A stretch of DNA of 64,000 nt from Eledone cirrhosa (Eukaryota), in NCBI GenBank assembly GCA_964016885.1, contig OZ024763.1, positions 17,918,001 through 17,982,000 on the forward strand, in the 5' to 3' direction. The translations under genes and the position numbers were made by a program. Below, piece by piece: positions 54,075 through 60,296 of this stretch (the stretch's first letter is position 1; each line of letters starts with the position of its first letter). The notes under the pieces were generated by a model, which saw only the letters and a program-made list of their open reading frames with translations, ran no database searches and was not told the DNA's origin.

Positions 54075-54715
54075 TGCAAGCGGTTTAAGGGTTGCAGATA
54101 TCCAGCTAAAACAGGGGTTAGAGTTGTGGGAGGACCCCAGTCAAAAGTTTACTGTTCAACACGGGGACCTTTTTGAAGCAGGCAAGCTGTTTTAGGGTTG
54201 CAGATAGCCAGCTAAAAGAAGGGTTAGCCTTGTGTGTCCTTTTTGAAGCTTACGGGCAGTTTAAGAATTGCAGATATCCAGCTAAAACAGGGGTTAGGGT
54301 TGTGGGAGGACCCCAGTCAAAAGTTTACTGTTCAACACAGGGGCCTTTTTGAAGCAGGCAAGCTGTTTTAGGGTTGCAGATAGCCAGCTAAAAGAAGGGT
54401 TAGCCTTGTGTGTCCTTTTTGAAGCTTACGGGCAGTTTAAGGGTTGCAGATATCCAGCTAAAACAGGGGTTAGGGTTGTGGGAGGACCCCAGTCAAAATT
54501 TTACTGTTCAACACAGGGGCCTTTTTGAAGCAGGCAAGCTGTTTTAGGGTTGCAGATAGCCAGCTAAAAGAAGGGTTAGCCTTGTGTGTCCTTTTTGAAG
54601 CTTACAGGCAGTTTAAGGGTTGCAGATACCCAGTTAAAACAGGGGTTAGCATTGTTGGGAACCCCAATCAAAAGTTTTCTGTTCAACAATAGATAGTTTT
54701 TGAAGCATGCAAGTG
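54075..54715. repeat. 176-bp dimeric tandem repeat, about 3.5 copies
   Basis: AGGACCCCAG recurs at 54131, 54307 and 54483; each unit has two GTTGCAGATA.CCAGCTAAAA subunits. Confidence 0.9.
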
Positions 54716-55167
54716 GTTTAACCCTTTAGCATTTAAACCAGCCATATCCGGCCAGAATTCTCTCACCTCTTTCTATTTAAACCAGCTTTAACCGGCCTTT
54801 CATACTTATGTTAAGGTATTGTTCTCAAAATAAATAATATCAAAATCTCATAGATTCGATATTATGTGAGGTAAAGCCTTTACAGTAAAAATATAATAGT
54901 AAATATAATGTAACAGCTTAAGGGTTGCAGATATTCAGCAAAAATAGAGGGGGGGGGGGGGGGGGGGGGGGCTCAATCATTAGTTTTCTGTTCAACAGTG
55001 GGTCCTTTCTGAAGCAATGTTTTACAGCTGGCTGCCTTTCTCTGTACTGTGAAAACCTGTCCAACCCTTGCTAGCAGGGAAAGCAGACATTAAATGGTGA
55101 TAATTGTTTTTATTAGTTTTAAGTATTCCATTCTAATCTCCTTTTTTTTTTTTTTACCATCCTGCAG

Positions 55168-55810: not shown

Positions 55811-55998
55811 TTGGATGTTGTTGGAATAAACTATATATCTCCTGAGAGTCTTGACAAACAGTCAGGTGTGGCGGAAGTACTGAAGGCAAGTTTCAGTGAC
55901 AATGGAGAATGGCTGGCAACTTTACAACACTGGGAAATAGCGGGATTTGATCCAGAAATAACTCTCAAGTTTTGGTATTACAACTCAAAGAAACAAAA
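55811..55998 (+). CDS. WDR75: WDR75 exon 11 (LDVVGINYISPES...GEWLATLQ...TLKFWYYNSKKQK)
   Basis: G.WLAT and LKFW motifs; AG acceptor, GTAATT donor. Confidence 0.95.
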
Positions 55999-56385: not shown

Positions 56386-57023
56386 TACCAAAATTAAATT
56401 AAAGATGTCATGTCTAAGAATGTCAGAAACATGCGCCATACCACCTGTGGAATAAGCTCAAAGATTCTAAGGAATAAATCTGAGCATTTATTAATACTAA
56501 CCCATGCTAGCGTGGAAAATGGACGTTAAACGAAGATGATGATGATGATTAAATTAAAAATCGATTGACATCATCATTTCATTTCATTTTATGTCCACTT
56601 TTCCCTGCTTGCAAGGGTGGGACGGGAACTGATTCTGGCTTGATTTCTACAGCTGGATGCCCTTCCTAACACCAACCTCATTTACAGTGAGTGCTGGGTG
56701 CTTTTTTTGCCGTGGCACCTCCACGACCACTTTGCAGTGGAATGATATATATATATATATATCAAAGGTATATATTGAGTTAGAAACTCAAAATAGTCTC
56801 TTACAATAAAATAGCTCTAGGAAAGAGATTTTTCCGAGCCGTATATTATAATTGAATATAAAAGAAAGATAAACACAGATATATACATATATGTGTTCAA
56901 ATCATAAGGGACCAGATTCACTGAGGTGAAAAGAATACTAACTATGGACAATAGGGTTTGCCAGACTCGATTTAAGAATAAATCAAGCAAATAAATACAA
57001 ACTGGAATTGTGGTAACTACCAA

Positions 57024-57103
57024 TCACCCAGACAGCTTTGGTAATGCTGTTTCGCAAAATTAATTGTGAAGTGGAATACCGATTCTTGCTCGTCAGTGGG
57101 TGA
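57024..57103 (-). ncRNA. Type I hammerhead ribozyme motif, complete core
   Basis: Minus strand reads UCACCCA-CUGACGA-GCAAGA...UUUUGC-GAAA-CAGC(auuaccaaa)GCUG-UC/UGGGUGA. Stems I, II and III all pair; cleavage triplet GUC. Confidence 0.85.
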
Positions 57104-57423
57104 AGAATTAGTATCCTGGTCACTTCTAAGTATATTAAAAAACTGAATAGTGTGCGTATATATAACGCACATGGTATCAGAACTTAGCGTGTCTCACAAA
57201 CTCACACCACTAAAAATAGCAGCCAGGTTTACTCAACATTTGAATTAGCTCAACAAATTAACAGAGCCAAATATATCAAAGGTATATATTGAGTTAGAAA
57301 CTCAAAATAGTTTCTTACAAGCGAATCTGGTCCCTTACAATTTGAACACATATATGTATATATGTGTGTTTATCTTTCTTTTATATTCAATTATATATAT
57401 ATATATATTTGTTTCTTTCCTAG

Positions 57424-57602
57424 GTACATACTGAACACAATGATTGCAGCCCCTCATTTGAAGAATGTCAGTAGTTTGTGTTTTTCTCGACTTAATTCAA
57501 CTGTTGCTGAATCAGGCTCAACTGTGAGACAATCAGTTGTCACCTGTAGCAGTGACAGATTATTTAAACTCTGGAGTCAACCTCATGATCCAAATCTCTC
57601 CT
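57424..57602 (+). CDS. WDR75: WDR75 exon 12 (YILNTMIAAPHLKNVSSLCF...VTCSSDRLFKLWSQPHDPNLS)
   Basis: LNT.I..PH and D..FK.W motifs; AG acceptor, GTGAGT donor. Confidence 0.95.
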
Positions 57603-58900
57603 GTGAGTATCTCATTATTTCATTGTGGTAGTAATGGTTGTTGTTGTGGTAGGGATGATTTTATGTTTAAGATGTTGGAAGAGATTGTTGTGACCATGAG
57701 AGCAACATAATTCAAACTCTATTCCCAATATATATATATATATATATCATCATCATCATCATTTCATTTTACGTCCGCTTTTTCCCTGCTTGCAAGGGTG
57801 GGACGGGAACTGATACTGGCTTGATTTCTACAGCTGGATGCCCTTCCTAACACCAACCTCATTTACAGTGAGTGCTGGGTGCTTTTTTTGCCGTGGCACC
57901 TCCACGACCACTTTACAGTGGAATGATAGGGACTGGAGTCCCTATCATCTCATTTCTACAGCTGAGTAAACTGGAACAATGTGAAATAAAGTGTCTTGCT
58001 CAAGGAAACAACACATCACCCGGTCTGAGTATTGAACTCACAACCTTTCGATTGCAAGGCCAATGCTCTAACCACTAAGCCATGTGCCTCCATTCATTCA
58101 TTTCATTTTACGTCCGCTTTTCCCTGCTTGCAAAGGTGGGACGGGAACTGATTCTGGCTTGATTTCTACAGCTGGATGCCATATATATATATTATGTCCA
58201 TAGAATCATTTGATAAGATATATACACCATTTTCTCTCCCAATCAACATAATCAAACACACAAAAAACCAATTAAACCAGGCTATAAGATTAAAAGGCAC
58301 CTATGTAGAAATAATAGATAAATAAATGACAGCCCTCTATTCGTGATCAACAGCTATAGAATATTTACCCAGCATTTCAATAGCACATGGAAATCAATTA
58401 AATATACCGTCAACCATACACAATTCGGTATCAAATTAAAGTTAGAAGAAAAAATGCATATAAACATACCAGGATTATATATATATATAAGGGAAAGAAA
58501 TTGAAAATGCAACTGGTGCCTTTTTAAGAATATTTGTTTCCTTTACCGGTTTCACAGTTCTTATGCTTTTCAAAAGTAGAATTGAGATGGAGGGTTTGTG
58601 GTTTTTCTCGCGATTTCTTTTCCTTATACTTTCACTCGTGTAGGACATCTCATTTTTTCCATTTTAAAAAAAACCTCATTTTCTTATATATATATTTATT
58701 AAAATAACAGATTAAAGTTTAAGCAAAGAATCGCTGCTTTCACCCTTCTGAAACTCCCGTTAAGGGTGAAAGCAGCGATTCTTTGCTTAAGCTTTAATCT
58801 GTTATTTTAATAAATATTTGCTCTACGGTTCTTATATATTTGATATATATTTATCCTTATCGAGCCCTCTTTGGATTTTAGTCTTCAAATTTATTATTAT

Positions 58901-58952
<52 letters not shown>

Positions 58953-60296
58953 ATATGTAAAAGGTAAATAGAAATAACAACACAATCGGTACAGTATGTA
59001 GAAGGAATATATTAGGCTAATGCTTGAAATAGCAGGAAGAGTGTCTTAATGGTTCGGATGCTAGTCCTTCATCAGAAGAAAGAATGAGAAATTAGAAAGA
59101 TTGAGGGTACGGGCAGCAGGGCAGAATCGGAAAAATACCAGGTCCATTCATGTTGCCATCTGTTGGAAATATAAGGAGCTATTGATTCCAATGTCAGGCC
59201 TGATTGTGATGAAGTAAATCTTGAACTGCTCGATAATGAAACATGTATGTGGTGCAATCTTTATACTTTGTTCCAGCCTGCTTATTATATATATATATAT
59301 ATATTGTTATACTTTGGGAGGGTCATGTTGCCAATAAACACACTCGCACCTGTTGGTTTTCACTTCAATTTATTATAAATTTTCAGTTGGTTAGTTCGAT
59401 AACCGGAAGGTTGCTTATATAGTGTCAAAGCTCTTTCGTCACACAATGTGACCTCCTCAGGAGAGAGACAAAATAAAAACATAGTCACTGAGGAGGTCAC
59501 AGATGTGTGGCGAAAGAGCTTTGGCAATATATAAACAACTTTCCGGTTATTCAACCAACCAACCAACCGGAAATTTATAATAAATTGAAGTGAAAACCAA
59601 CAGGTGTGTGTGTATGTGTTTTTATTGGCAACATGACCCTCCCAAAGTATAACAATATCTGTTTTCAACACACGTTTTCAGATAAGAAATCTTGCAAAAC
59701 AAATTCAAAAACGAATTATATATATATATGCACATGGCTTAGTGGTTAGAGCATTGGCCTTGCAATCGAAAGGTTGTGAATTCAATTCTCAGACCGGGTG
59801 ATGTGTTGTTTCCTTGAGCAAGACACTTTATTTCACATTGCTCCAGTTTACTCAGCTGTAGAAATGAGATGATAGGGACTGGGGTCCCTATCATTCCACT
59901 GCAAAGTGGACGTGTAGGTGCCACGGCAAAAAAGCACCCAGCACTCACTGTAAATGAGGTTGATGTTAGGAAGGGCATCCAGCTGTAGAAATCAAGCCAG
60001 AATCAGTTCCCGTCCCACCCTTGCAAGCAGGGAAAAGCGGACATAAAAATGATGATGATGATACACATATACATATATATTATATATATATATATATATA
60101 ATAAAATCACACAACCACTTGATGTGGTTTGTTCATTCAAATGTTTATACTTTCTTTACTAGAAGAGAGATTGACATGAAAATTTGCAATATTAGAATAA
60201 AGACTTTGTATTTTGCAAGAATGTTTTGGTAATGTGGTTTCATGTGGTACAGGATATGAAGTCAAACCGTTCTTTGTTTCTGTCCATAATTTTCAG

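What the first reader, a model, noticed from the sequence alone, without database searches (positions are those of the whole stretch)
56757..57400. Complete GUC hammerhead inside a retrozyme/PLE-like unit in WDR75 intron 11, abutting the exon 12 acceptor
Seen: an intact hammerhead (57024-57103, antisense to WDR75) with 7-bp stem I, about 6-bp stem II with a large loop, and a CAGC/GCUG stem III. It is bracketed by a roughly 50-bp direct repeat (ATATCAAAGGTATATATTGAGTTAGAAACTCAAAATAGT at about 56759 and 57273, about 514 bp apart). An inverted copy of about 56845-56920 follows at about 57322-57395, ending about 30 nt before the splice acceptor. Inference: a roughly 500-nt non-coding repeat unit that could be processed by self-cleavage from tandem copies, and the best candidate here for an active ribozyme.
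Basis: partly seen in the sequence, partly recalled or inferred. Interest (0 to 1): 0.75.

Follow-up and report, generated by a model that had tools for sequence, protein, structure and literature searches.

The report
Penelope-copied hammerhead retrozyme, one dispersed copy
This is one of thousands of scattered copies of a 514-base non-coding jumping element with a complete self-cutting RNA motif; its paired, fixed ends suggest Penelope-type enzymes pasted it into this intron, likely from a circular RNA, and this single copy is predicted to be a passenger.

Summary
A complete type I hammerhead (57024-57103, minus strand) sits in a 564-nt arm with a 50-nt terminal repeat at 514 spacing, plus an inverted arm ending near a WDR75 acceptor. 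It is one insertion of an abundant dispersed family: 599 exact 23-mer matches just after the cut site and 1,821 near the 3' end. Subfamilies show two-sided changes in stems I and III, so the ribozyme fold was conserved. Arms end at two fixed sites 85 nt apart, one site per arm in 69 of 70 scorable two-armed insertions, mostly in (TA)n. This is the Penelope 'tail' footprint. About 98% of copies reaching the cut site read through it, which fits a circular or uncut template. No long arrays and no autonomous partner were found. This copy has one ribozyme, antisense to WDR75, so it cannot release a unit or cut the host pre-mRNA; it is about 3.5% decayed. Cleavage and expression are untested. The scan reported the same architecture for 310-478-nt families in this genome, but not this family. 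Verdict: new member of the non-LTR retrozymes, moderate interest.

The parts
56757..57320 (-). Long (direct) arm: one full 514-nt unit plus 50 nt; its 3' end is the family's outer fixed site (last non-TA base 56763), running into (TA)n
57024..57103 (-). Complete type I hammerhead (stems 7/6/4 bp, core CUGACGA...GAAA...GUC; cut predicted between 57031 and 57030); stem I extends by 5 bp past a 4-nt bulge (57113-57109 with 57023-57019)
56757..56806 (-). 3' copy of the 50-nt terminal redundancy; holds a 7-bp hairpin in the most conserved part of the family outside the ribozyme
   Evidence: hairpin read from the sequence
57271..57320 (-). 5' copy of the 50-nt redundancy (start of the over-run round; 5' truncation point of the long arm)
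56757..56841 (-). 85-nt 'tail' between the two fixed end sites (unit positions 480-564), present on the long arm and absent from the inverted arm
57320..57401 (+). Short inverted arm (unit positions 399-479), back to back with the long arm, ending at the family's inner fixed site and running into (TA)n
56744..56762 (.). (TA)n target tract, left side, at the truncated end of a SINE-like repeat
   Evidence: (D12)
57391..57410 (.). (TA)n target tract, right side, directly before the polypyrimidine stretch and acceptor
55811..55998 (+). Upstream WDR75 exon (host gene, context)
57424..57602 (+). Downstream WDR75 exon (host gene, context); acceptor AG at 57422-57423

Best explanation
The feature is one dispersed insertion of an abundant, non-coding 514-nt repeat family with a conserved type I hammerhead (a non-LTR retrozyme), likely pasted into a (TA)n tract of a WDR75 intron by a Penelope-type reverse transcriptase and endonuclease working in trans, most likely from a circular RNA. 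Shown: family, copy abundance, covarying ribozyme stems, two coupled fixed ends, (TA)n targets, read-through of the cut site. Inferred: (1) a rare source locus with two ribozymes is transcribed, self-cleaves and is ligated into a circle; (2) the Penelope enzyme nicks (TA)n DNA and starts cDNA from both sides of the break at two internal RNA sites 85 nt apart; (3) here one side ran 564 nt (once round plus 50) and the other 81 nt, and the two 5' ends were joined back to back. This copy has a single ribozyme antisense to WDR75 and is predicted to be a passenger. Odds: Penelope-mobilised retrozyme family 0.85; circular rather than uncut linear template 0.6.
For: Family: 40 of 40 scored candidates match at 91-100% (the top hit is this locus), from 3,466 first-look candidates; 599 exact matches to the 23-mer after the cut and 1,821 to a 23-mer near the 3' end, reversed-pattern controls 0. 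Covariation among 72 parsed cores: stem I pair 1 A-U to G-C in 5, pair 7 U-A to A-U in 3, stem III pair 3 G-C to A-U in 9, pair 4 C-G to U-A in 4; GUC kept in 66 of 72; loop III length variable. Fixed ends: of 257 distinct arms, 109 end at unit position 35-54 and 103 at 465-482. Of 105 back-to-back pairs, 70 have both ends at these sites, and 69 of the 70 use one of each. (TA)n follows 82 of 118 and 78 of 115 such ends against 10 of 59 other ends. Tail, inverted 5' copy and (TA)n bias are Penelope marks (PMC8557442); the tail equals the gap between two RT start sites in vitro (PMC11167929). Read-through: 5 true junctions at the cut among 599, roughly 2% after correcting for pattern sensitivity. 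The two arms of an insertion rank in the top 5% of similarity in 34 of 55 comparisons. The unit folded as a circle gives z = -4.8 against 30 shuffles. The genome holds Penelope-type RT + GIY-YIG frames, one of 1,096 aa.
Against: No autonomous partner sharing sequence was found: 12 local alignments with 6 sampled Penelope 3' regions fell within the shuffle range except one, in an AT-rich stretch (45 vs shuffle maximum 40), and no shared coding flank appeared in 97 + 30 loci. The tail is 85 nt against the 30-40 nt described. No long arrays: the longest arm is about 2.4 units, so the RT rarely went round more than once. Tandem rounds within an insertion rank in the top 5% in only 18 of 48 comparisons, weaker than a single circle predicts unless post-insertion decay hides it. 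The hammerhead fold is 3.8 kcal/mol above the predicted minimum. Read-through is equally expected from uncut RNA, the main substrate for the Anolis element in vitro, and only 1 of 9 Xenopus dimers cleaved. A>G excess on the sense strand is slight (11.8 vs 8.8 T>C per 1,000). Samples were chosen by anchors in the 3' half, which inflates conservation of the 3' strand of stem I and of the outer end site.
Confidence: 0.65

Rival explanations
1. Same family and same Penelope machinery, but the template is an uncut linear transcript of a short tandem source locus; the ribozyme is slow or cuts only some molecules and no circle is needed.
For: Arms rarely exceed one unit and never about 2.5. Tandem rounds are only moderately more alike than random copies. 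The hammerhead is not the minimum-energy fold. Uncut RNA was the dominant substrate for the Anolis Penelope element in vitro (PMC11167929).
Against: Compensated stem changes across subfamilies imply that the fold mattered for spread. A working ribozyme on a linear template should pile 5' ends up at the cut, and the excess is at most mild (5 of 30 junctions in a 15-position window, mean 2). Circles are shown for coral, mussel and axolotl retrozymes.
Confidence: 0.25
2. The unit is the pseudo-LTR / 3' end of an autonomous Penelope element, and the copies are simply its 5'-truncated insertions.
For: The architecture is that of Penelope insertions; Penelope frames are abundant (10,596 GIY-YIG first-look candidates); one locus (L128) joins the unit's 3' end directly to a truncated Penelope-type RT frame.
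Against: In the sampled loci that run on past an end of the unit, the sequence is the next unit, not a coding frame. No shared coding flank in 97 + 30 loci. None of 80 long frames from Penelope loci matches the unit, apart from the L128 frame that overlaps the element itself. In L128 the RT lies 3' of the unit and has its own unrelated 3' end, as expected for nested insertion into a TA tract.
Confidence: 0.07
3. The ribozyme or the inverted repeat has been co-opted to regulate WDR75 splicing or transcript level.
For: The two arms are predicted to form a ~80-bp duplex in the WDR75 pre-mRNA that leaves only the last ~21 nt of the intron free.
Against: The ribozyme is antisense to the gene; the copy differs from the young-family majority at 18 of 514 positions like other decaying copies; the position coincides with a (TA)n tract, the family's normal target; the acceptor is used in a spliced contig (whether that sample carries the insertion is unknown).
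Confidence: 0.03

Closest known systems
Metazoan non-LTR retrozymes (Cervera and de la Pena 2020, PMC7229834, parts 2-4 of 6 read; Li, Clavereau and Pollet 2026, bioRxiv 10.64898/2026.07.22.740005, parts 1-3 of 5 read, supplements not seen)
   Same: Non-coding head-to-tail unit of a few hundred bases, one canonical type I hammerhead per unit, GC about 33%, strongly self-paired predicted circle, thousands of copies, coexisting Penelope elements.
   Different: Unit of 514 nt (170-400 in the first paper, within 51-972 in the second); mostly sub-unit to 1.5-unit dispersed insertions rather than arrays; long stem II loop; the copies carry a two-armed Penelope end signature that the parts of these papers I read do not describe.
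Penelope-like elements with GIY-YIG endonuclease (PMC8557442, 12 of 17 passages seen; Anolis PAc in vitro, PMC11167929, 10 passages seen)
   Same: 5' truncation, partial tandems, inverted 5' copy, optional tail equal to the gap between two start sites, (TA)n targeting, hammerhead upstream of the 3' end.
   Different: No reading frame; a full three-stem hammerhead instead of the minimal form; tail 85 nt instead of 30-40; no sequence match to the sampled autonomous families.
Other two-armed hammerhead families that this scan noted in the same genome (310, 422, 467/468, 478 nt; AI notes)
   Same: Back-to-back arms, two fixed outer ends, (TA)n anchors, proposed Penelope copying of an RNA circle.
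   Different: No look-alike of this unit in the scan's index; this family is older (copies 68-95% identical to the window copy) and has short arms instead of arrays of 10-20 units.

Membership tests
Non-LTR retrozyme | Canonical type I hammerhead in the unit | tested here: met
   Core and three stems present; four pairs with two-sided changes among 72 parsed copies
Non-LTR retrozyme | Head-to-tail repeat unit of a few hundred bases | tested here: met
   Period about 514 kept across copies and subfamilies; this locus has 1.1 units, the longest arm about 2.4
Non-LTR retrozyme | No protein coding | tested here: met
   No frame of 110 aa or more within 56757-57320; no match to 80 long frames from Penelope loci beyond self-overlap
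Non-LTR retrozyme | Two consecutive intact hammerheads (criterion for an active locus, Li et al.) at this locus | tested here: not met
   One hammerhead only. In the family, L177 and L183 have two that pass, of 9 loci with two or more on one strand (the filter was strict and missed some intact variants)
Non-LTR retrozyme | Highly self-paired predicted circle, low GC | tested here: met
   -124.1 kcal/mol, 62% paired, z -4.8 vs 30 shuffles; antisense -3.0; a second copy -2.9; GC about 33%
Non-LTR retrozyme | Self-cleavage of the RNA | not testable with these tools
   Needs an assay; the genomic trace (5' ends at the cut) is only a mild excess, 5 of 30
Non-LTR retrozyme | Expression as linear and circular monomers | not testable with these tools
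   Only assembled contigs were available; they cannot show strand, ends or level
Non-LTR retrozyme | Absence of LTR, primer-binding site and polypurine tract | not tested
   The 50-nt repeat is variable overlap between rounds, not an LTR; PBS and PPT were not searched
Penelope-like element (autonomous) | RT + GIY-YIG reading frame | tested here: not met
   None in the unit or linked upstream in 97 + 30 loci
Penelope-like element (insertion signature) | Partial tandem with inverted 5'-truncated copy | tested here: met
   105 back-to-back pairs; this locus
Penelope-like element (insertion signature) | Tail present on one end only | tested here: met
   69 of 70 scorable pairs use one end site each; length 85 nt, longer than the 30-40 described
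Penelope-like element (insertion signature) | Microsatellite (TA)n target bias | tested here: met
   160 of 233 canonical ends vs 10 of 59 other ends
Penelope-like element (derivation) | Sequence kinship to the pLTR of an autonomous family | tested here: inconclusive
   No convincing match in 30 GIY-YIG loci and 13 extended regions, a small part of 10,596 candidates

The most novel reading that the evidence does not exclude
The family is the genomic record of a Penelope enzyme dimer copying one hammerhead-processed 514-nt RNA circle from both sides of a DNA break, at two start sites 85 nt apart, with no sequence kinship to its helper element. The retrozyme would then be an independent RNA-circle parasite that evolved its own long 'tail' to capture Penelope machinery and kept its ribozyme through several subfamily waves.
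Probability: 0.3. Interest if true: 0.65.

Novelty: new member of a known kind. Interest (0 to 1): 0.4.

Why it matters
That Penelope elements mobilise animal retrozymes has been proposed from co-occurrence and pLTR kinship. This family gives a footprint of the mechanism: two end sites that are almost perfectly coupled (69 of 70), matching the two start sites seen for a Penelope protein in vitro, together with read-through of an intact ribozyme junction. It names exact start positions and two candidate source loci, so the route can be tested biochemically. The single WDR75 copy is itself ordinary. Five paper searches listed no description of a cephalopod retrozyme or of this end signature on a retrozyme; the library lacks most subscription papers and repeat databases were not available.

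Tried and rejected
Rfam: no match at gathering score and no hammerhead family at E<=10. Pile-up of 5' ends at the cut site: of 55 pattern hits, 25 were internal indels and were dropped; the other 30 junctions give 5 at position 291, 2 at 292, 4 at 297, 4 at 302, so no clear pile-up. Long tandem source arrays: none among 40 scored of 3,303 candidates or among the first 100 of 599 listed places. Autonomous partner: not found. A recurring neighbour Penelope family is not enriched near the element (22 of 137 loci vs 4 of 30 controls). RNA-editing scar: A>G 100 of 8,505 vs T>C 110 of 12,568, too weak to use. Expression: no RNA holder listed; the four runs are contigs of unrecorded kind from one study and say nothing on strand, ends or level. 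The fall in summed contig depth near 57020-57040 was not taken as truncation at the cut, because 30 of 30 position-ordered genomic copies continue through it; subfamily divergence in the 5' half is the likelier cause. Empty-site allele: no listed contig joint skipped the insertion, but only 15 of 189 joints were shown. The first intactness filter was too strict and was replaced.

Full report
Observation. On the minus strand, 57103-57024 is a complete type I hammerhead: stem I of 7 bp, core CUGACGA, stem II of 6 bp with a 24-nt loop, GAAA, stem III CAGC/GCUG, and GUC with the cut predicted between 57031 and 57030. It is the only one of 6 motifs parsed in the window with more than 2 bp in stem III. 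The 50-nt direct repeat has a spacing of 514 and 98% identity; the inverted arm is 76 nt at 95% and extends to 57401 by BLAST. The flanking exons are consecutive parts of the WDR75 second propeller, and a contig of run X4 joins them. Exon numbers were not checked. Rfam does not detect the motif. The predicted minimum-energy fold pairs the core with the GUC strand; the ribozyme fold lies 3.8 kcal/mol higher, close to the median of 3.4 for 29 copies with U7.

The family. I number the unit from window 57320 (position 1) downward; the cut follows position 290. A search of the 3.0-Gb genome gave 3,466 first-look candidates; the 40 scored all match over most of the length, the 39 other than this locus at 91-95%. 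Exact 23-mers occur 599 times just after the cut and 1,821 times near the 3' end, so the family has thousands of copies (inference from about 5% divergence). Older subfamilies at 68-87% identity keep the same period. The copies are dispersed. The longest of 257 distinct arms is about 1,250 nt, and a search with a 2.4-unit query found no longer array among 40 scored of 3,303. L177 and L183 carry two intact ribozymes in tandem and are candidate source loci.

The ribozyme was conserved. Of 121 distinct copies spanning the motif, 72 have a parsable core and 58 pass all stem criteria. Four pairs change on both sides: stem I pair 1 (5 copies), stem I pair 7 (3), stem III pair 3 (9) and stem III pair 4 (4), while loop III varies in length. 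These counts are copies, not independent events, and many loci were chosen by an anchor that includes the 3' strand of stem I. Folded as a circle the unit scores z = -4.8 against 30 shuffles.

The ends carry a Penelope footprint. Of 257 arms, 109 end at positions 35-54 and 103 at 465-482. Among 105 back-to-back pairs, 70 have both ends at these sites and 69 of them use one of each. Both kinds of end run into (TA)n in about 69% of cases (160 of 233) against 17% for other ends (10 of 59). The window copy fits: a 564-nt arm ending at the outer site, an 81-nt arm ending at the inner site, (TA)n on both sides. Partial tandems, an inverted 5' copy, a tail on one end and (TA)n bias are described for Penelope-like elements (PMC8557442, passages), and the tail was shown to be the interval between two RT start sites for the Anolis element (PMC11167929, passages). 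Here the interval is 85 nt rather than 30-40. The two arms of one insertion rank in the top 5% of similarity in 34 of 55 comparisons and tandem rounds in 18 of 48, compatible with one source RNA followed by a few percent of decay.

What the template was. If the RT had copied cut linear monomers, insertions would stop at position 291. They rarely do: 7 of 599 hits have three mismatches just before the cut, 5 of them true junctions, about 2% after allowing for the pattern catching roughly half of random junctions (my estimate). Across positions 291-305, 30 true junctions give 5 at 291 against a mean of 2 (25 indel rows dropped), a mild excess at most. One arm (L005) breaks at GUC and jumps to position ~400. 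So the template mostly had a sealed junction: a ligated circle, as shown for coral, mussel and axolotl retrozymes (PMC7229834), or uncut RNA, as preferred by the Anolis protein in vitro. Conservation of the fold favours the circle; short arms and the folding penalty leave uncut RNA open. I put it at 0.6 to 0.4.

The helper. The genome has many Penelope-type frames: 10,596 GIY-YIG candidates, 150 scored, with long RT + GIY-YIG frames. None of the sampled 3' regions resembles the unit, and no coding flank is shared among 97 + 30 element loci. L128 joins the unit's 3' end to a truncated Penelope-type RT, and five loci share one TA site inside another family's terminal repeat, but that family is not enriched near the element (22 of 137 vs 4 of 30). 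Shared targeting of TA tracts explains both. The helper remains unidentified.

This locus. With one ribozyme it cannot release a unit; the ribozyme is antisense to WDR75 and cannot cut the pre-mRNA; the copy differs from the young-family majority at 18 of 514 positions. Its only plausible effect on the host is an ~80-bp duplex predicted between the arms in the pre-mRNA, ending about 21 nt before the exon; this is untested. No expression evidence could be obtained.

Comparison and verdict. It works like, and meets the sequence-testable criteria of, a metazoan non-LTR retrozyme, except that this locus fails the two-ribozyme criterion for an active copy (bioRxiv 10.64898/2026.07.22.740005). It is not an autonomous Penelope element but bears its insertion signature. 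Papers seen: the 2026 preprint parts 1-3 of 5 (supplements not seen; they may list related families), PMC7229834 parts 2-4 of 6, passages of PMC11167929 and PMC8557442; all others as listings only. Five searches showed no account of this family or of this end signature on a retrozyme. Earlier AI notes of this scan describe the same architecture for other units in this genome and call the host a cephalopod (I did not test the host label); none matches this unit. I had reached the two-site reading before seeing them. Verdict: new member of a known kind, interest 0.4, carried by the family-level footprint rather than by this copy.

Noticed in passing
window 56841-56922 with 57320-57402 (+ strand): The two arms are predicted to form an ~80-bp duplex in the WDR75 pre-mRNA covering the likely branch-point zone, leaving ~21 nt before the exon free; a possible A-to-I editing substrate (inference).
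   Followed up: partly
window 22103-, 26078-/26091+, 28683-, 30561-/30568+, 30900-, 53195-, 59460-/59488+: Further hammerhead cores with little or no stem III, several as back-to-back pairs; likely terminal repeats of at least three Penelope-type families. 59301-59658 is a two-armed example.
   Followed up: partly
window 58692-58817: 56-nt inverted repeat that by eye matches the 3' end of the Penelope-type element in L128.
   Followed up: partly
L128:2218-4300 (G000:C3:~170.517 Mb): A two-armed copy whose 3' end joins a 5'-truncated Penelope-type RT + endonuclease frame with no TA tract between; either a template jump or a nested insertion.
   Followed up: partly
L024, L084, L155, L161, L166: Five insertions share one TA site just 3' of the hammerhead core inside another Penelope family's terminal repeat; no overall enrichment of that family nearby.
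   Followed up: yes
L005:2696-3034; L003:368-538: One arm breaks exactly at the GUC and jumps to unit position ~400; another begins at ~289-291. Possible traces of cut RNA ends.
   Followed up: partly
window 56895-56903 (+ strand): A B-box-like motif (consensus recalled) on the strand opposite to the ribozyme; the ribozyme strand has T5 and T6 runs at unit positions ~104 and ~179 that would stop RNA polymerase III before a second ribozyme. Promoter unidentified.
   Followed up: no
window 57172-57155 (- strand; unit positions ~149-167): Hairpin with a TATATA loop about 50 nt upstream of the hammerhead.
   Followed up: no
window 56578-56747, 57759-57928, 58097-58180: SINE-like repeat copies; the copy left of the insertion stops at the TA tract where the 99% identical copy at 57780-57928 continues.
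   Followed up: no
window 54080-54720: Tandem repeat of 176 nt built from related 106- and 70-nt halves, 3-4 copies at 94-96%.
   Followed up: no
L133:1275-4562; L132; L134: Long uninterrupted Penelope-type frames (1,096 aa with RT and C-terminal GIY-YIG in L133), candidates for recently active elements.
   Followed up: partly
run X4, window ~57023: A contig end shows a related hammerhead variant with a different triplet and stem I, suggesting a further subfamily (table 7).
   Followed up: no
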